DNA from: Escherichia phage Ecp_YSF
Sequence record: OR327751.1
Strand: one strand, 5' to 3'
DNA length: 53,268 nucleotides
Position numbers and translations under genes: made by a program. The notes under the pieces were generated by a model. The model saw only the letters and a list, made by a program, of their open reading frames with translations, did not search any database and was not told the DNA's origin. This document shows positions 34,828-52,546 of this stretch, piece after piece. Numbering within the stretch: position 1 is the stretch's first letter; the number at the start of each line of letters is the position of its first letter.

Positions 34828-35382
34828 ATGTTATCATTCAAAGTCCTTGCACTTCTGACAGCTTTAGTTCACATCAACGCCCCAGCTTCGGTTGGGGCAG
34901 TGAATTCTGCTATTACAGATTTTGCAAGTCACTCTTATTTAAATGGAAGTCTGAAACTATCTTCTTCACAACGCAAAGAGCTAGAATGCTATACTAAAGT
35001 TATCTGGTATGAAGCTCGCGGAGAAGACAAACATGGAAAGATTCTGGTAGCTAATGTCGTCCGTAATAGAACTAAGTTCGGGAAGCCATTCGCTAACACC
35101 GTTTGTGATGTTGTCTATCAACGCAATCAATTTGCATGGACACGAGAAGCAAAGAAGAAGAATGCTCAATGGAAGCATGTAGCAAAGATTAATTATGCCA
35201 CAGAACAACAACAAGTTCTGGACACCATTAATGTTGCAATCTCTTTTGTACTATTCAATCAACCCTCTGTCACCAAAGCAACCCACTTTTGTACAGCATC
35301 GGAGAAGTGCAACTTCAAGAATGTTAAAGGTTTGGGACGTTATGGTGGCCATAAATTCTATGAGTATCTAGGAAATCTGTAA
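34828..35382 (+). CDS. Endolysin candidate: SleB/CwlJ-like cell-wall hydrolase with N-terminal signal peptide
   Basis: N-terminus [24 protein letters not shown] is signal-like; motif [24 protein letters not shown]. Confidence 0.6.
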
Positions 35383-36482
35383 TGGCTTACACTACCTTTT
35401 CACAAACCAAGAATAACCAACTATTAGAACCAATGTTCTTTGGTCAGAACGTTAACGTTGCTCGATATGACCAACAGAAGTACAGCATCTTCGAGAAGTT
35501 AATCGAGAAGCAGTTATCTTTCTTTTGGCGACCTGAGGAGGTTGATGTTAGCCAGGACCGAATTGACTATGCTGGTCTTCCTGAGTGTGAGAAACACATT
35601 TTCACCAGCAATTTACGATACCAAATCCTGCTTGATTCCATTCAGGGGCGTGGACCAACTACAGTTTTGCTACCAATTGTGAGCATTCCTGAGCTTGAAA
35701 CTTGGATTGAAACTTGGTCATTCTCAGAGACAATTCATTCTCGTTCTTACACGCATATTATTCGTAATATCGTGACAGACCCAAGCGTAATTTTCGATGA
35801 AATTGTGGAGAATGAGCATATTAAAATGCGTGCAATTGGCATCTCCCAATATTATGACGAGCTTCAACACCTAACTTCCATGTGGCATCTGCATGAAGAC
35901 AAAGTTTCTCTTCGTGAGCTTAAGAAGAAGCTGTATTTATGCCTCATGTCTATCAATGCATTGGAAGCAATCCGCTTTTATGTCAGCTTTGCTTGCTCAT
36001 TTGCCTTCGCTGAACGCAAGTTAATGGAAGGAAATGCCAAGATTATTCGCTTAATTGCTCGTGATGAAGCACTCCATTTGACTGGAACTCAACACATGCT
36101 GAACCTTCTTGCAAGCGGTGTTGATGACCCAGAAATGGCCGAAATTGCTAAAGAATGCCGCCAAGAATGCCAAGAAATGTTCGAAAATGTGGCCCAACAA
36201 GAGAAAGATTGGGCTGATTATTTGTTCAAAGATGGCTCAATGATTGGCTTAAATAAGCAAATTCTGTGCGGATATGTGGAATATATCACGAATATTCGTA
36301 TGCAAGCAGTTGGATTGGATGCTCCATTCAAAGGTGCTACTAACCCGATTCCTTGGATTAACGCATGGTTGAATTCGGATGCTGTACAAGTCGCTCCACA
36401 AGAAACGGAGATTAGTTCGTACCTTGTCGGGCAGATTGATTCCGAAGTGGACACCAATGCTCTTGGCGGATTTGAGCTTTAA
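35382..36482 (+). CDS. nrdB: Ribonucleotide reductase class Ia small (beta) subunit
   Basis: Translation is colinear with E. coli NrdB as recalled from memory, not computed ([11 protein letters not shown]...; EEVDVS; [16 protein letters not shown]; [11 protein letters not shown]). Confidence 0.9.
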
Positions 36483-36769
36483 CGATTATATGCGAGAAGA
36501 GATTCGATGCGTTAGCGTCGTTTCTCTTTGAGCTAGAATAAGACAAGTAAATTAAATATTTATTTATTCCCAATATTGCTACAATATTAAGAGTAATATT
36601 AGGAATGCGTAAAGTTAAAACCAAATGGTACATGGTCGGTCAACTGTACCTAGACATAGACTTGTTCACAATCGGTCAGCTGTATCTAGCCGGAATTTGT
36701 TCGAACAGAAGTCCGACTATGTTATAAAAATTTTTATATAATTTTTTTTAATTTAAATATTGTTACGGA

Positions 36770-36847
36770 ATTAATGAGACTCAAATTGTTTCAATATTAA
36801 TGAGACTAGAATTGTAACGATATTGACGAGACTAGAATTGTGGCAAT
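36770..36847 (+). repeat. Three tandem imperfect 26-bp repeats
   Basis: ATTAATGAGACTCAAATTGTTTCAAT / ATTAATGAGACTAGAATTGTAACGAT / ATTGACGAGACTAGAATTGTGGCAAT; core resembles T7 promoter TAATACGACTCACTATAG. Confidence 0.8.
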
Positions 36848-36852
36848 ATTAT
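36823..36852 (+). promoter_or_regulatory. Sigma70-like promoter candidate upstream of RNAP gene
   Basis: TTGACG, 18 nt, TATTAT (TATAAT also present at 36850-36855); AT-rich tract upstream at 36700-36770. Confidence 0.4.
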
Positions 36853-37030
36853 AATTTTTATTTTGGGCCAGCGGGGGAGGGGAAGCCCAACGTCCTATCG
36901 GACTTAAATACGGTCCCTACTCCAACTTTTTCCTACAGCCTATCGGCTTTCAAACAACACCAAGTTAGGCGCTTCGCTTATGGGTCAAGGTCAAAGTCTC
37001 CGTGCTGTTGTAACAATGGCACAGGTTTGT

Positions 37031-37052
37031 GATATTAGTTGGTTGTGAATTG
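37031..37052 (+). promoter_or_regulatory. Conserved phage motif copy a (candidate phage-RNAP promoter)
   Basis: GATATTAGTTGGTTGTGAATTG; matches consensus CTGAAACATTAGTTGGATGTGAA; about 65 nt upstream of RNAP start. Confidence 0.4.
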
Positions 37053-37115
37053 TGTAATGGCTACGCTATTATAATCCGTTTCAGTTAAATCATACACAAT
37101 CTTGGAGACTTACAA

Positions 37116-39056
37116 ATGATTACTATCACCACTCAAACTATCAAATCTGTTGTTCCTGCTATCACTGCTCTGGTATACCGTGCCAAAGAGAAGCAGAACT
37201 ATATGCAGCCTCAGACTTGTGCTATTGCTGCCCTAGCCATATTCAAGATGATGACGTCTTTCACTCGTGATGACGTTGTTCCTGCCATTGCGATGGTTGA
37301 GCTGGCTTCTGCTTCTATTGCTGATGCCAACCGCTACAACAACGATTTGAAAGCAATGCACTATGTTGACCCAGCTATCAACCTCATTGGTTTGGCTAAG
37401 CACTTTGGCTTCATCACCATGAACGAAGACAAGTCATTCCAGCAAACTGACACATGGGTTGAACTGGTTACAACCAAAGACACAGCAGTGCCATTCACTG
37501 AGCGTGTTACATCTGAATCTCGTCGCAAGCCTTTCGTTAAAGGTGGCAAAGTTAAGCCATCCAAAACTCTGAAAGCTGCAATCGAATTCCTGCAAGATAC
37601 TGAGTACCATGTGGAGACTGAGATGGTTCGCATCATCCAGTCCATGCTTGAGCAACGTACTTATGGTGGCTTGCAGATGCCAGAAGCAATCCAAACTGAA
37701 CTCCATGTTTGGAACAATGCTGTAGCAATGATGAATCAGGATAAGCTGTATTCTGACTACTTTGCTGATAACCGTGGTCGTCTGTATCATGTAGCATGTG
37801 CTGGTCCTAACCCACAATCCTCTGACTTTGCTCGTTGCTTGTATTCTCACAATGTTGAGAACATCGTTAAGAAGTTTAACGAAGATGGTTCTACTACCAT
37901 TGCATACAACATGTTCATGGCAGAGCTGGAAGATATTTCCGGTGGTGAATGGTGCAGTGCTAAGCGTTTAACTTATGTTGCTCAGAATCCAGCTGGTTCA
38001 CTTGCTCGCATGATGAACATGCCTAAAGCTGAGCGTCCTTCTAAGCCATTCACTTATGTTCGTCTGGCTCTGGATTGGTTCAAGTTTGAGACTACAGGTG
38101 AATGCGATTCTCGTGTAGGCTTTGGCTTAGATGCTAAATGTTCTGGTACTCAATATCTGGCATTCATTGCTGGTAACATGGAAATGGCTCGTGCAACAGG
38201 TCTGGTTGATTCTGAGACTAAAGCATCTGACCCATACCAGTTGAGTCTTCGTGAACTGTTGAAGCTGCTGGACAAGTCTTCAATGAAACCATCTCCTGAA
38301 ATTATGGATGAATTCTTGAATCCGAAAGCTGGTCGTAAGTTTATCAAAACTCCATACATGGCTATCCAATATGGTGGTGGTAAAGCTGCACTAACTGGTT
38401 CTTCTGACTTTATCTCCTACATGACAGAAGCTCTCCAGATTCCTATGGAGAAAGCTGAGGCATTTGCTGAACTGTGTGTAGAAGCAATCCATAACGCATT
38501 GGGTGCTAAGATTAACATGTTCATTGAGAAAGCTGCTGATGCTGCATACAACCGTTGTGTTGAACTTGGTAAAGAGTACATCACATACCGTCACACTGAT
38601 GGTCAGGTTGTAATGAAGCCTTGCTTCCCATCTCGTGAAATCTGTGAGGCATTCAGCATTCGTGTTGACTCCCAAACTCGTGTTATCTTTGGTCAGATTC
38701 AGGAGAATAAGCCTTGGACCATTCGTGAATCCAATCCAACTAAAGAAGAATTCAAGCGTACTTTCGTTGTTAACTACATTCAAGGTATTGACGCACTGGT
38801 TGCTCGTACTGTTGCAGTTAAAGCTAAAGAAGCTGGTCTTCGTGGCTTTACTTCAATTCACGATTGTTTCCGTTGCTGCTTAGCTGATGCTCCACGTATG
38901 ATGGAAGTTATTCGTGCAGCATATGTTGAAATCTTCGTAACCAACAATCAATTCGAGAATCTGTCTAAGCAACTCGGTGGCATTCAGATGTATCATGAGA
39001 ACATCGTAACCGAAGAGCTTCTGATGAGCGAACACGCTTACTACTTCTGTCAATAA
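37116..39056 (+). CDS. Single-subunit DNA-dependent RNA polymerase (T7-like catalytic core, compact 646 aa)
   Basis: Motif A-like LDAKCSGTQYLAF; motif B-like RKFIKTPYMAIQYGGGKA; motif C-like FTSIHDCFRC; RBS GGAGAC before ATG. Confidence 0.75.
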   Translation: MITITTQTIKSVVPAITALVYRAKEKQNYMQPQTCAIAALAIFKMMTSFTRDDVVPAIAMVELASASIADANRYNNDLKAMHYVDPAINLIGLAKHFGFITMNEDKSFQQTDTWVELVTTKDTAVPFTERVTSESRRKPFVKGGKVKPSKTLKAAIEFLQDTEYHVETEMVRIIQSMLEQRTYGGLQMPEAIQTELHVWNNAVAMMNQDKLYSDYFADNRGRLYHVACAGPNPQSSDFARCLYSHNVENIVKKFNEDGSTTIAYNMFMAELEDISGGEWCSAKRLTYVAQNPAGSLARMMNMPKAERPSKPFTYVRLALDWFKFETTGECDSRVGFGLDAKCSGTQYLAFIAGNMEMARATGLVDSETKASDPYQLSLRELLKLLDKSSMKPSPEIMDEFLNPKAGRKFIKTPYMAIQYGGGKAALTGSSDFISYMTEALQIPMEKAEAFAELCVEAIHNALGAKINMFIEKAADAAYNRCVELGKEYITYRHTDGQVVMKPCFPSREICEAFSIRVDSQTRVIFGQIQENKPWTIRESNPTKEEFKRTFVVNYIQGIDALVARTVAVKAKEAGLRGFTSIHDCFRCCLADAPRMMEVIRAAYVEIFVTNNQFENLSKQLGGIQMYHENIVTEELLMSEHAYYFCQ

Positions 39057-39073: not shown

Positions 39074-39298
39074 ATGACCACAAACTTGGAGACTACAATG
39101 AATACCATGCAAATCAATCAAATCGAAAACTGTTTCAATCCTCATCACACCTGTGACATGAGTGATTTATCTCGTCCTACGGTGGAGGAGACTAAAGACT
39201 TCTTAGAATTGTTATCAGAATATAAGCAAGAGTCGCATGTATTATTGCACGCATTCTTGCATAATTCTGGATTCTTTGATACAGAAATACCGTTCTGA
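39074..39298 (+). CDS. Hypothetical small acidic protein (74 aa)
   Basis: ATG-initiated ORF after RNAP; in-frame ATG at 39098 with GGAG upstream is an alternative. Confidence 0.4.
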   Translation: MTTNLETTMNTMQINQIENCFNPHHTCDMSDLSRPTVEETKDFLELLSEYKQESHVLLHAFLHNSGFFDTEIPF

Positions 39299-39367: not shown

Positions 39368-39392
39368 TTGTAACATTAGTTGGATGTGAAGT
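39368..39392 (+). promoter_or_regulatory. Conserved phage motif copy b
   Basis: TGTAACATTAGTTGGATGTGAAGTA. Confidence 0.4.
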
Positions 39393-39599
39393 AACAGAAT
39401 ACGGAGAAGTATTCCGCATGTCATGTTGAAATCATTCTAGAAACATTTCAGCATGTCAACTAAACATACAGCGTTGTAATGATGTGGCAATCATTGAACT
39501 CCCTGTCTTTGGCCGGACAAAGTTCCAGCAACCATGTGTGAAGTAGGAATATCATTCGAAACTGTTCTTCAAATAAACATGACTTATCCCTAAAGAAGC

Positions 39600-40320
39600 T
39601 GGGACAGCTCATGTAGTACCAGCATGTTCAATTGTGACAATATTGCTCCATCTCCTATTATAAAGGCCCACCCACAAGCCGGGAGATAACTTTGGTAATA
39701 TTGGAACTTTTGGACATGCTTCTTTCTTTCAATCAGAATTCGAAAGAAGAGAAGAGTCGGAGCAAAGCCGCGAAACTAATCCCGTAGCCCGCCCCGATTT
39801 TGAGCAACAAATATTGTGACAATTTTGTCGCAGTATGGCATGTAAATATTGCTACAAATTGGCATGTTGGAATGTGGCAGAATTGTTAGAGGACTAATCC
39901 CCTCGAAGATACAATCGTCTACCAATCTGGCATGTTATTTTTGTAACAGTATTTGTGCCAATTTCGCATGTATTAGCTGTATCAGTATTAACCCAATATT
40001 CTTGCAACCCGCATGAATACTGGCTTCCAGCCAAGCGAAGGCTTTATCATCGCATGTAAATATTGTGACAATATTGGGATAAAACCCTTTATTTAATTAG
40101 TTTTATTATGCTGTACATGGTCGGTTTTCCGTACCTGCTTGCTCCAATCTTAATGTGCCAAATACGTTAAGTATGGGAGTAAACCTGTAATTAATGGTGC
40201 ATGTTTAATTGTGACAAAATTCGTCTATTTGGCAGATGAATTAGTTGCAATTAAGCATGTTCATTTATCATTAGTTGCATGTGAATAAGACCAAATCTCT
40301 GTAAATTCTGCCGAAATTGT
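39600..40320. repeat. Cluster of operator-like palindromes (AATATTGTGACAATATT family), each preceded by GCATGT
   Basis: Copies near 39616, 39810, 39836, 39925, 40050 (perfect 17-bp palindrome at about 40063-40079), 40197; related AATATTGCTACAATATT at about 36567. Confidence 0.7.
40265..40290 (+). promoter_or_regulatory. Conserved phage motif copy c
   Basis: TTATCATTAGTTGCATGTGAATAAGA. Confidence 0.4.
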
Positions 40321-40484
40321 GTGACAGATTTTAGAGAGATTATGTCTCCAAGCTAATCATTGCAGTTTTTCGACACTTTGTGTGTCACATATAGCCTGTG
40401 AAAAACGTGTGGTATATTGCTGGATTGCGACGCGCCCACCAGACTAGGAAGTCACTGACGGCGGCACACACAGGAATACTATAT

Positions 40485-40555
40485 AACTCCCTACAACTTT
40501 AAGGTGGATTGAGGTAAGACAAGACCTCCACAATCGTTCTGTAGGGAGTTCTTTT
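40485..40555 (+). promoter_or_regulatory. Long-range stem enclosing an inner hairpin, then U-tract, 8 nt before the RBS of the first small gene
   Basis: AACTCCCTACA (40485-40495) pairs with TGTAGGGAGTT (40540-40550); inner GTGGA/GAGG...CCTC/CAC; followed by CTTTT and AGGAG-ATG. Confidence 0.45.
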
Positions 40556-40571
40556 AACTCAGGAGAATAAA

Positions 40572-52225: not shown

Positions 52226-52546
52226 GTGAACATGGCCTAGCTAGTTGGTGGTGTAAAGACTGACCAAGGTGACGACAGCCAAAGTCGAGGGAGTGCGCGA
52301 CTTTAAATAACGAGACTCTAGCCACTTGTGGTATGGCAGGTGTAACTCCTGCAATTGCTCTGGGCATAACAATTAAAATTGCTGCCTCGTATTGAACGCG
52401 AGAAAGTTCAGGTGGTCACTTCCTAGAACAGTGTCCGAGAACACACTCGCCAAAGTGCTTGAGAACGTTAGCTCTGTCTTGCCAGCATTAATGGCACGTT
52501 GGCCGCGTAAAGGCCGCAACCTCAATCATATATAAGGTAGTCTTCT

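What the first reader, a model, noticed from the sequence alone, without database searches (positions are those of the whole stretch)
36770..36855. Three tandem 26-bp repeats resembling T7-type promoter cores, overlapping a sigma70-like promoter, upstream of the RNAP gene
The repeat core TAATGAGACTCAAATTGT is about two-thirds identical in register to the T7 promoter TAATACGACTCACTATAG, including GACTCA. The third repeat begins with TTGACG and, with TATTAT 18 nt downstream, also reads as a host sigma70 promoter. A related sequence (ATAACGAGACTCTAGCCACTTGTGG) occurs near 52306-52330. These could be a second class of phage promoter, host early promoters driving RNAP expression, or regulator binding sites.
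Basis: seen in the sequence. Interest (0 to 1): 0.5.

Follow-up and report, generated by a model that had tools for sequence, protein, structure and literature searches.

The report
Direct repeats at phage early promoter
The three 26-bp repeats are real, but they are not T7-type promoters; they are a conserved array of short direct repeats built into the probable host-polymerase promoter upstream of the RNA polymerase gene of a phiEcoM-GJ1-like coliphage, and public records of its relatives already annotate that promoter and the repeat region.

Summary
The window is a Carltongylesvirus (Chaseviridae, phiEcoM-GJ1-like) genome. Three tandem 26-bp units lie at 36770-36847, far beyond chance. TTGACG-18-TATTAT (36823-36852) is the best sigma70-like site in the region.

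That promoter is already annotated in phiEcoM-GJ1, and the repeats are annotated as a repeat_region in phage flopper. The T7 resemblance is chance: 11 of 18 for the first unit only, a level 136 other 18-mers in the window reach. The "related" sequence at 52306 is unrelated.

The family's multi-copy candidate phage-polymerase promoter is a different motif, ATTAGTTGSATGTGAA, with a copy at 37034.

Arrays of 2-3 such units occur in 20 close relatives and in phages whose polymerase is only 62% identical. Their most conserved part is GAGACT-NR-AATTG, not the sigma70 hexamers. Other genera carry different cores at the same place, uniform within each genome. That pattern suggests recognition sites for a phage-encoded protein.

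The array lies about 50 bp (or about 200 bp) outside the terminal repeat that carries the polymerase gene.

Best reading (confidence 0.4): a host-promoter region with embedded regulatory repeats. Main rival: a packaging or replication element. Interest is modest.

The parts
36505..36530 (+). Intrinsic-terminator-like hairpin plus T tail, just after the nrdB stop at 36482. It closes the preceding (late) gene block.
   Evidence: CGATGCGTTAGCGTCG + TTTCTCTTTG; ORF and Pfam.
36572..36588 (.). Perfect 17-bp dyad AATATTG-CTA-CAATATT, the founder of a motif family whose degenerate copies sit inside each 26-bp unit.
   Evidence: 21 hits at up to 3 mismatches against 4.95 expected, clustered at 36572-36850 and 39628-40075. 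The dyad is kept in 4HA13, Faunus and L010 with different central triplets.
36636..36689 (+). Two copies of TCGGTCAnCTGTAyCTAG (36636-36653 and 36672-36689). This second direct-repeat motif is found across the family.
   Evidence: family D4; homologues in Faunus, 4HA13, Y2, PM1, Myduc, phiA050, L023 and L058.
36713..36742 (+). AT-rich tract holding a weaker promoter-like site 'P0': CCGACT, 18 nt, TATAAT.
   Evidence: Read from the sequence. It scores 9 of 12 but falls below the scanner's 4-of-6 rule for the first hexamer. GACTAT...TATAAT plus a T-run is conserved in relatives.
36759..36769 (+). Partial unit (3' part only: ATTGTTACGGA).
   Evidence: family D1.
36770..36795 (+). Unit 1: ATTAATGAGACTCAAATTGTTTCAAT.
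36796..36821 (+). Unit 2: ATTAATGAGACTAGAATTGTAACGAT. This is the optional middle unit, absent from 8 of 20 close relatives.
36822..36847 (+). Unit 3: ATTGACGAGACTAGAATTGTGGCAAT.
36823..36852 (+). Sigma70-like promoter 'P1': TTGACG, 18 nt, TATTAT. The predicted start is about 36859-36861, inside a T-run.
   Evidence: The homologous site is annotated 'putative host (Escherichia coli) sigma70 promoter' in EF460875 at 364-393.
36865..36990 (+). Conserved G+C-rich noncoding element with short hairpins (GTCC-TATC-GGAC at 36892-36903, AGCC-TATC-GGCT at 36937-36948, AGGCG-CTT-CGCTT at 36967-36979). The left genome end recorded for several relatives maps to 36898-36904.
   Evidence: conservation; record ends and terminal-repeat boundaries; no Rfam family.
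37034..37049 (+). ATTAGTTGGTTGTGAA, one of 10 + strand copies of the motif annotated in GJ1 as 'putative phage promoter'. In PYps23T the experimentally mapped terminal repeat starts after its tenth base (window 37043|37044).
   Evidence: PMC8762354.
37116..39056 (+). Single-subunit RNA polymerase gene (646 aa).

Best explanation
The three 26-bp units are an array of direct-repeat recognition sites for a sequence-specific protein, most likely phage-encoded. Each unit has the core GAGACT-NR-AATTG followed by a degenerate half of the family's AATATTG-N3-CAATATT dyad. The array is built into the host-polymerase early promoter region of the phage RNA polymerase gene.

Proposed working. After the late genes end at a terminator (36505-36530), E. 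coli sigma70 holoenzyme binds P1, whose -35 TTGACG lies inside unit 3 and whose -10 TATTAT lies just after it. It starts at about 36860 and transcribes a roughly 255-nt structured leader and the polymerase gene. The units occupy the -35 and spacer of P1 and the roughly 55 bp upstream. A protein bound there would therefore occlude or modulate P1, most likely shutting off host-driven polymerase synthesis once phage promoters such as the one at 37034 take over.

Shown: the repeats, their conservation pattern, the sigma70 match, the position after a terminator and before the polymerase gene, and the position just outside the terminal repeat. Inferred: that P1 fires, that a protein binds the units, and the direction of the effect.
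For: 1. P1 is the best sigma70-like site in the region and one of four on the + strand of the genome at 10 of 12 or better. It was independently annotated as a host promoter in phiEcoM-GJ1.
2. Another of those four sites (39634-39661) lies in the other ORF-free early region. Like P1, it is a TATTAT(A)A followed by a G+C hairpin.
3. Seventeen of 20 close relatives have a hexamer at the start of the last unit (TTGACG, TTAACG or TTAATG) followed after 18 nt by TATTAT, TATTAA or AATTAT. In the three with a 21-bp insert, the junction creates TTGCTC-18-TATAAT (Bp7, Bp10) or TTGCTC-18-TATTTT (TH37).
4. Similar geometry is seen in Myduc (TTAAGT-18-TATATA), PM1 (TTAACG-17-TATAAA) and the first unit of phiA050 (TTAATG-18-TATTAT).
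5. In Faunus the second unit runs straight into the ribosome-binding site of a small ORF, so a promoter must lie in or before the array.
6. GAGACT and AATTG stay constant across the units recovered, while the -35-like and -10-like positions vary more; GAGACT and part of AATT were required by the pattern used to pick the units, so this comparison is not independent.
7. The core and the 26-bp phasing persist in L023, whose polymerase is only 62% identical and whose sigma70-like hexamers are degraded (TTCTGA, AATCTT).
8. At the same position PM1 has three units with core ACGGCTC, Myduc three with AGTCGTAAG, and Y2 about five 12-13-bp GATTCG units. The cores are uniform within a genome but differ between lineages. 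Faunus and Y2 share the host Erwinia amylovora yet have different cores, which argues for a phage-encoded rather than a host reader.
9. No similar sequence occurs in 5,426 complete E. coli genomes.
Against: No transcription start mapping exists for any Chaseviridae phage, so P1 is only a consensus match. Its -35 weakens to TTAATG in 7 of 20 relatives, and in L058 and L023 the -10 is out of register or absent.

No DNA-binding domain was found in ten early ORFs, so there is no candidate reader protein. 4HA13 and L010 lack the array.

The array lies outside the terminal repeat, so the polymerase gene copy at the left end of virion DNA would have no P1. Closeness to the genome end suits a packaging role equally well.
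Confidence: 0.4

Rival explanations
1. The array is a cis-acting DNA site for genome maturation or replication rather than transcription. It would be either a terminase-recognition array next to the cut that creates the left end of the terminal repeat (in the manner of lambda cosB R-sites or T7/T3 pacB), or origin iterons next to the AT-rich tract.
For: The last unit ends 51-56 bp from the position where JL1, Y2 and 4HA13/Mangalitsa/TH53 records place the left end (window 36898-36904). It ends about 197 bp from the experimentally mapped PYps23T boundary (window 37043|37044). The array has two or three directly repeated sites with regular phasing and lineage-specific cores, and is flanked by AT-rich tracts. 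Degenerate dyad copies cluster on both flanks of the terminal repeat. From memory, not tested here: T7 carries short repeat arrays beside its terminal repeat, and lambda cosB has three gpNu1 sites within about 150 bp of the nick site.
Against: The array is missing or degenerate in 4HA13 and L010 although the terminase is highly conserved in the group (PMC8762354). Its distance to the conserved G+C element varies widely: a roughly 120-bp ORF is inserted in Faunus, the gap is about 200 bp in L023, and the units are interleaved with T-runs in phiA050. The universally conserved G+C element and the GTCGGTCAnCTGTAC motif are better candidates for a family-wide packaging signal. No small terminase or initiator gene is annotated. 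Cumulative GC skew is uninformative because all genes face one way.
Confidence: 0.25
2. The units are simply tandem duplications of one sigma70 promoter module. Each unit gives a weak -35-like TTAATG and, at the junction with the next unit, a -10-like AATATT or TATTAA. This would make a cluster of overlapping host promoters with no separate binding protein.
For: Every unit starts with TTAAYG or TTGACG and every junction reads ATATTA or TATTAA at 16-18 nt. Copy number varies between 2 and 3 among close relatives, as expected for slippage. From memory: T7 also uses several early host promoters (A1-A3).
Against: The apparently best conserved positions, GAGACT and AATTG, are in the spacer, where sigma70 promoters are not constrained. 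L023 keeps the core but loses the hexamers. The cores change in concert between lineages that share a host. The internal junction -10s lack the -7 T (TATTAA, TATTGA).
Confidence: 0.15
3. The units are promoters, or a second promoter class, for the phage's own T7-like RNA polymerase.
For: Unit 1 matches the T7 promoter at 11 of 18 positions, including GACTCA. Lineage-specific cores would in principle fit polymerase-promoter co-evolution. The ICTV profile says the promoters of these polymerases are not yet identified (PMC12842549).
Against: A match of 11 of 18 is at or below chance (136 sites observed, 186 in shuffles), and units 2 and 3 score lower. The unit occurs at this one locus only, whereas a phage-polymerase promoter should precede many gene blocks. 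A different motif, ATTAGTTGSATGTGAA, has 10 copies against 1.5 expected, all on the + strand, and its ATTAGTTG core is conserved across the family. The units have no G-rich initiation sequence after the AT box.
Confidence: 0.03
4. The repeats are a functionless product of replication slippage in an AT-rich spacer.
For: Copy number is polymorphic. Small insertions (21-bp and hairpin inserts) are tolerated in and around the array.
Against: The array, its 26-bp phase and its core are kept in Faunus, phiA050, L058 and L023 (76% to 62% polymerase identity), while the flanking spacer has diverged. Unit 1 of PYps23T and Faunus differ at 1 of 26 positions, while their polymerases are only about 77% identical and Faunus aligns to this intergenic region at about 74%. 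Unit-specific variable positions (TTTC versus TGGC) are stable across phages, so there is no ongoing homogenisation.
Confidence: 0.07

Closest known systems
'Putative host (Escherichia coli) sigma70 promoter' of phiEcoM-GJ1 (EF460875, 364-393) and the 'repeat_region' of phage flopper (MN850594, 10914-10970)
   Same: These are the homologous sequences: TTGACGAGACTAGAATTGTGGCGATATTAT in GJ1, and the two-unit array in flopper.
   Different: Neither record links the promoter to the repeat array, the core GAGACT-NR-AATTG, the lineage-specific variants or the position relative to the terminal repeat. Neither annotation is experimental.
T7 early promoters A1-A3 (host sigma70 promoters that drive gene 1; from memory)
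   Same: The proposed role is the same: the host polymerase makes the first phage polymerase mRNA from a promoter near a genome end, upstream of the polymerase gene.
   Different: The T7 promoters are separate strong promoters inside the left end. Here there is one good consensus match embedded in 26-bp repeats, lying outside the terminal repeat, so it precedes only the right-hand copy of the gene in virion DNA.
T7/T3/SP6 single-subunit polymerase promoters
   Same: An AT-rich 5' part, and GACTCA in unit 1.
   Different: The similarity is at chance level, the unit sits at a single locus, and there is no G-rich start. The family's multi-copy motif is ATTAGTTGSATGTGAA.
Operator or iteron arrays and terminase-binding repeats (lambda oriL iterons, plasmid iterons, lambda cosB R1-R3; from memory)
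   Same: Two to five direct repeats with regular phasing, beside AT-rich DNA. The core is homogeneous within a genome and differs between lineages.
   Different: No cognate protein is known. The 26-bp (2.5-turn) phasing is unusual. The array overlaps a promoter-like site, and it is absent from some family members.

Membership tests
T7-type single-subunit RNA polymerase promoter | Similarity to a known phage-polymerase promoter consensus beyond chance. | tested here: not met
   Best match is 11 of 18, for unit 1 only. 136 sites in the window reach 11 of 18 or better, against 186 in shuffles. T3, SP6 and K11 consensus sequences give no better.
T7-type single-subunit RNA polymerase promoter | Many near-identical copies ahead of middle and late gene blocks, all on the coding strand. 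| tested here: not met
   The unit is found only at 36770-36847. ATTAGTTGSATGTGAA, not the unit, has this distribution.
T7-type single-subunit RNA polymerase promoter | Initiation by the phage polymerase (rifampicin-resistant). | not testable with these tools
   No transcript-mapping data were found for any Chaseviridae phage.
Bacterial sigma70 promoter | -35 and -10 hexamers close to TTGACA and TATAAT with a 16-18-nt spacer. | tested here: met
   TTGACG-18-TATTAT scores 10 of 12, best in the region, and is one of four such + strand sites in 53 kb.
Bacterial sigma70 promoter | Hexamers and spacing conserved in relatives. | tested here: inconclusive
   The geometry is kept in 17 of 20 close relatives and regenerated after a 21-bp insert in the other 3. 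However, the -35 weakens to TTAACG (9) or TTAATG (7), and the site is out of register or degraded in L058 and L023.
Bacterial sigma70 promoter | A mapped transcription start. | not testable with these tools
   None published.
Direct-repeat protein-binding array (operator or iteron type) | At least two direct repeats with regular spacing, and a core more conserved than its surroundings. | tested here: met
   The period is 26 bp. GAGACT and AATTG are the highest-information positions over 33 distinct units, with the caveat that the selection pattern required GAGACT and part of AATT. The core is kept down to 62% polymerase identity.
Direct-repeat protein-binding array (operator or iteron type) | Core specific to lineage and uniform within a genome (co-evolution with a reader protein). 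| tested here: met
   GAGACT in Carltongylesvirus, Faunus, phiA050, L023 and L058; ACGGCTC in PM1; AGTCGTAAG in Myduc; GATTCG in Y2.
Direct-repeat protein-binding array (operator or iteron type) | An identified cognate DNA-binding protein. | tested here: inconclusive
   Ten early ORFs gave no Pfam DNA-binding domain, and their PHROGs are all of unknown function. No regulator is annotated in flopper.
Terminase recognition site (cosB or pacB type) | Lies next to the terminus-generating cut. | tested here: met
   It is 51-56 bp from the JL1, Y2 and 4HA13-type left end and about 197 bp from the PYps23T-type end.
Terminase recognition site (cosB or pacB type) | Present in all phages that share the terminase. 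| tested here: not met
   The array is absent or degenerate in 4HA13 and L010, and its spacing to the terminus varies by more than 100 bp.

The most novel reading that the evidence does not exclude
The GAGACT-NR-AATTG units and their lineage-specific counterparts (ACGGCTC, AGTCGTAAG, GATTCG) are the docking array of an unrecognised, fast-evolving phage protein. That protein would act at the junction between the unique DNA and the terminal repeat, coupling early transcription across the boundary to the cut or duplication that makes the roughly 2.3-3 kb terminal repeat. This would be a pac- or cosB-like device for a long-terminal-repeat myovirus that encodes a T7-like polymerase.
Probability: 0.15. 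Interest if true: 0.55.

Novelty: new member of a known kind. Interest (0 to 1): 0.3.

Why it matters
Chaseviridae are myoviruses that carry a T7-like RNA polymerase gene inside a long terminal repeat, and their transcription programme has not been mapped. The ICTV profile states that their phage-polymerase promoters are still unidentified. Knowing which signal lets the host polymerase make the first phage polymerase, and what the conserved repeats beside it do, is the entry point to that programme. The lineage-specific cores found here give a concrete handle for finding the reader protein, through pull-down or by phylogenetic co-variation. As a finding in itself it is modest: the promoter and the repeat region are already annotated in relatives, and the T7-like idea does not hold.

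Tried and rejected
- Rfam on 36300-37300 at E up to 1 and on the whole window at gathering scores: no credible family.
- tRNA scan, to test whether the 52306 sequence is part of the tRNA reported for GJ1: no tRNA in this window.
- Folding the repeat region as single-stranded DNA: z = -0.92, so no hairpin or cruciform signal. This, together with the short 4-bp stems, makes an N4-style hairpin-promoter idea for the dyads unattractive.
- RNAalifold on the G+C element from 11 phages: only 13 pairs and no compensatory pair counted, partly because of a 1-nt misalignment of Faunus and phiA050. Structure conservation is therefore left as an observation, not a claim.
- blastn of the array against all complete E. 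coli genomes: no match, so it does not copy a host regulatory site.
- IMG/VR pattern scan for two phased cores: it added L058 and confirmed L023 and L025; the other hits were chance matches inside coding DNA.
- By eye, the IHF, Fis, CRP, LexA, NrdR, sigma54 and sigmaE consensus sequences do not fit the unit. A loose likeness of TCGAATT / TTCGAAATT to the H-NS nucleation motif was not pursued.
- The idea that GAGACU repeats in an upstream transcript compete with the polymerase gene's Shine-Dalgarno for the AAGUCUCC anti-SD was dropped: only 6 bp could pair, against an extended SD pairing.
- Pfam and PHROGs on ten early ORFs, and the flopper annotation table, gave no candidate regulator and no small terminase. 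A planned test of co-variation between terminase and unit core was abandoned for that reason.
- Literature: no start-site mapping for Chaseviridae. The GJ1 and Y2 genome papers are not held. The ST32 paper mentions no promoters or repeats. A search for T7 pacB literature returned only PacBio papers, so the T7 and lambda comparisons rest on memory.

Full report
**What the window is.** The region 36000-39100 matches Escherichia phage flopper at 95.6% over its full length. It also matches about 60 other phiEcoM-GJ1-like phages of the Chaseviridae; the closest (flopper, GJ1, ST32, JL1) belong to genus Carltongylesvirus. The ORF at 37116-39056 is a 646-aa single-subunit RNA polymerase (PF00940, E = 3.7e-18). 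The gene upstream, 35382-36482, is the small subunit of ribonucleotide reductase.

**Checking the observation.** The repeats are real.
- Tandem Repeats Finder gives a 26-bp period, 3.2 copies and a score of 103.
- The unit 20-mer with up to 3 mismatches occurs only at 36770, 36796 and 36822, against 0.02 expected.
- TTGACG (36823-36828), an 18-nt spacer and TATTAT (36847-36852) are present and score 10 of 12.

The T7 likeness is not more than chance. Only unit 1 reaches 11 of 18, and 136 other 18-mers in the window do as well or better, compared with 186 in shuffles.

The sequence at 52306 is not a relative of the unit. A weight matrix built from 33 distinct units scores the three units at 36-39 bits and the next best site in the genome at 8.4; the best score around 52306 is negative.

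**What is already on record.** The phiEcoM-GJ1 GenBank record annotates the homologous TTGACG...TATTAT as a 'putative host (Escherichia coli) sigma70 promoter'. The flopper record annotates its two-unit array as a repeat_region.

GJ1's 'putative phage promoters' are a different sequence, ATTAGTTGSATGTGAA. The window has 10 copies of it against 1.5 expected, all on the + strand between 37034 and 50270. One copy, at 37034-37049, lies between the repeats and the polymerase start codon. The ICTV profile nevertheless regards the phage-polymerase promoters of this family as unidentified (PMC12842549). I found no transcript-mapping study for the family.

**Anatomy of the intergenic region (36483-37115).** In order, it contains:
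1. a terminator-like hairpin at 36505-36530;
2. a perfect dyad, AATATTG-CTA-CAATATT, at 36572-36588;
3. two copies of TCGGTCAnCTGTAyCTAG;
4. an AT-rich tract with a weak promoter-like site, CCGACT-18-TATAAT, at 36713-36742;
5. a partial unit and then the three units;
6. TATTAT followed by a T-run;
7. a G+C-rich element with short hairpins at 36865-36990;
8. the ATTAGTTGG motif;
9. the ribosome-binding site of the polymerase gene.

Each unit contains a degenerate copy of the 17-bp dyad. That dyad has 21 hits in the window against 4.95 expected, and 12 of them fall in two clusters, 36572-36850 and 39628-40075.

**Comparative evidence on the units.** I collected the region from 20 close relatives.
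- Twelve have three units and eight have two; the middle unit is the optional one.
- The hexamer at the start of the last unit is TTGACG in 4, TTAACG in 9 and TTAATG in 7.
- Eighteen nt downstream lies TATTAT in 13, TATTAA in 3 and AATTAT in 1.
- In Bp7, Bp10 and TH37 a 21-bp insert separates the last unit from the -10. The junction then reads TTGCTC-18-TATAAT in Bp7 and Bp10, and TTGCTC-18-TATTTT in TH37.

Across 33 distinct units the highest-information positions are GAGACT and AATTG, which lie in what would be the promoter spacer. The -35-like and -10-like positions vary more. The pattern used to collect the units required GAGACT (or GATACT) and most of AATT, so this comparison is partly circular.

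The same core and 26-bp phase recur in more distant phages:
- Erwinia phage Faunus has two units, and the second runs into the ribosome-binding site of a small ORF.
- Aeromonas phage phiA050 has three units.
- L058 has three units.
- L023 and L025 have three units, although their polymerase is only 62% identical and the sigma70-like hexamers are degraded.

At the same position, other genera carry arrays with other cores:
- PM1 has three units with ACGGCTC.
- Myduc has three units with AGTCGTAAG.
- Y2-like phages have about five 12-13-bp GATTCG units.
- 4HA13 and L010 lack a clear array.

Faunus and Y2 infect the same host but have different cores. The array also has no counterpart in 5,426 complete E. 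coli genomes. Cores that are uniform within a genome, specific to a lineage and independent of the host are the signature of sites read by a phage-encoded protein.

**The promoter reading.** On the + strand of the whole window only four sites reach 10 of 12, fewer than the 8.6 seen in shuffles. Two of them lie in the two ORF-free regions that flank the terminal repeat: P1 at 36823 and a second site at 39634. Each is followed by TATTAT(A)A and a G+C hairpin.

A promoter after the late terminator and ahead of the polymerase gene is what the biology needs, because the first polymerase mRNA must be made by the host enzyme. The last-unit geometry (a TTAAnn-type hexamer, 17-18 nt, then a TAT-rich hexamer and a T-run) also appears in Myduc, PM1 and the first unit of phiA050, even though their cores differ. 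This supports a promoter whose spacer and upstream DNA carry lineage-specific recognition sites.

**Genome ends.** Chaseviridae have non-permuted genomes with long terminal repeats (PMC12842549). The available boundary data are as follows.
- PYps23T (89.8% identical here): restriction analysis, ligation PCR and direct sequencing gave a 2,339-bp repeat (PMC8762354). In the record both boundaries fall inside copies of the ATTAGTTGG motif, ATTAGTTGGA|CGTGAA and ATTAGTTGGA|TGTGAA. These correspond to window 37043|37044 and 39384|39385.
- JL1 (same genus as the window): the record holds an exact 2,995-bp repeat that starts at CCTAT|CGGACTTAAATACGG.
- Y2: the 2,608-bp repeat starts at GTCG|GACTTAATAATACGG.
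- 4HA13, Mangalitsa and TH53: the records start at CGGAC|TTAAAT.

The last three map to window 36898-36904, inside the conserved G+C element.

Under either set of boundaries, the units and P1 lie just outside the repeat, by 51-56 bp or by about 197 bp. Virion DNA would then carry them once, upstream of the right-hand copy of the polymerase gene only.

**Verdict on mechanism.** I favour, at confidence 0.4, a host-polymerase early promoter (P1) with embedded and upstream direct-repeat sites for a phage-encoded regulator, probably used to shut down or tune host-driven polymerase expression.

The main rival, at 0.25, is a cis element for terminus formation, packaging or replication. It is favoured by closeness to the end and by the repeat architecture. 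It is weakened by the absence of the array from some family members and by its variable spacing to the conserved G+C element.

The other readings score lower: plain tandem sigma70 promoters at 0.15, neutral slippage at 0.07, and phage-polymerase promoters at 0.03.

**What led nowhere.**
- Rfam and tRNA scans found nothing.
- DNA folding of the array showed no structure.
- RNAalifold of the G+C element was weak.
- Pfam and PHROGs on ten early ORFs and the flopper annotation table gave no candidate regulator.
- Several literature look-ups failed or returned nothing useful.
- The comparisons with T7 and lambda therefore rest on memory and should be treated as leads, not tests.

Noticed in passing
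window 37034-37049 and 39375-39390 (also 40270, 43506, 44103, 47992, 48132, 48320, 49923, 50255): The 16-bp motif ATTAGTTGSATGTGAA, annotated in GJ1 as a putative phage promoter, has 10 copies, all on the + strand. In PYps23T both experimentally mapped terminal-repeat boundaries fall after the tenth base of two copies (ATTAGTTGGA|YGTGAA). The motif may therefore mark, or be used to generate, the repeat ends as well as, or instead of, acting as a promoter.
   Followed up: partly
window 36865-36990: A noncoding G+C-rich element with short hairpins sharing the loop TATC (GTCC-TATC-GGAC, AGCC-TATC-GGCT) and a third hairpin. It is conserved down to 62% polymerase identity and has apparent compensatory variants (ATCCC-TATC-GGGAT in Faunus and phiA050; CCTGC-TTC-GCAGG in Y2 against CCCAC-TTC-GTGGG in L013). 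It has no Rfam family. The left genome end of JL1, Y2, 4HA13, Mangalitsa and TH53 falls in or next to the first hairpin (window 36898-36904). RNAalifold support was weak.
   Followed up: partly
window 39385-40570: A 1.2-kb ORF-free stretch just after, or straddling, the right boundary of the terminal repeat. It holds 10 of the genome's 23 + strand GCATGT copies (an eleventh lies just upstream at 39235), usually followed by the dyad AATATTGTGACAATATT, and a second 10-of-12 sigma70-like site (39634-39661) followed by a conserved GGCCCACCCACAAGCCGGG hairpin.
   Followed up: partly
relatives: L002 (GJ1) 316-336; L037 (Bp7), L044 (Bp10) and L043 (TH37) between the last unit and the -10; absent from the window: A 21-bp insert (TRCTCACTTYGYTCG...AT) sits exactly at unit junctions (after CAAT, before ATTA) at different junctions in different phages. 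A similar sequence is inserted in GJ1's early region (about 2938-2960 of L002) relative to PYps23T. Small hairpin inserts (CCGTTACGAAGTAACAA; CCTTCGGAGAAG) also occur in the same spacer in some relatives. It looks like a tiny mobile or recombination-prone element.
   Followed up: partly
window 36994-37012 with 37093-37111: The Shine-Dalgarno region of the polymerase gene (GGAGACTT, 37104-37111) can pair with AAGTCTCC at 36994-37001 as part of a 19-nt imperfect inverted repeat. The pairing is kept, with a G-U, in PYps23T. A transcript starting at the ATTAGTTGG motif (about 37044) would lack the upstream arm, whereas a P1 transcript would contain it. The leader folds with z = -1.77.
   Followed up: partly
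window 36636-36653 and 36672-36689: The motif GTCGGTCAnCTGTAC (two copies here) is present in one to three copies at the same place in every family member examined, including those that lack the GAGACT array (4HA13, PM1, Myduc, Y2). It is a better candidate than the 26-bp units for a family-wide cis signal.
   Followed up: no
window 36853-36864: The predicted P1 start lies in A-TTTT-G, within a T-run that is 4-12 nt long in all relatives and lies just before the G+C element. This arrangement resembles promoters controlled by UTP-sensitive reiterative transcription (pyrBI, codBA, upp; from memory).
   Followed up: no
whole window, + strand: Sigma70-like sites at 10 of 12 or better are fewer on the coding strand (4) than in shuffles (8.6 +/- 2.5) or on the other strand (9).
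   Followed up: no
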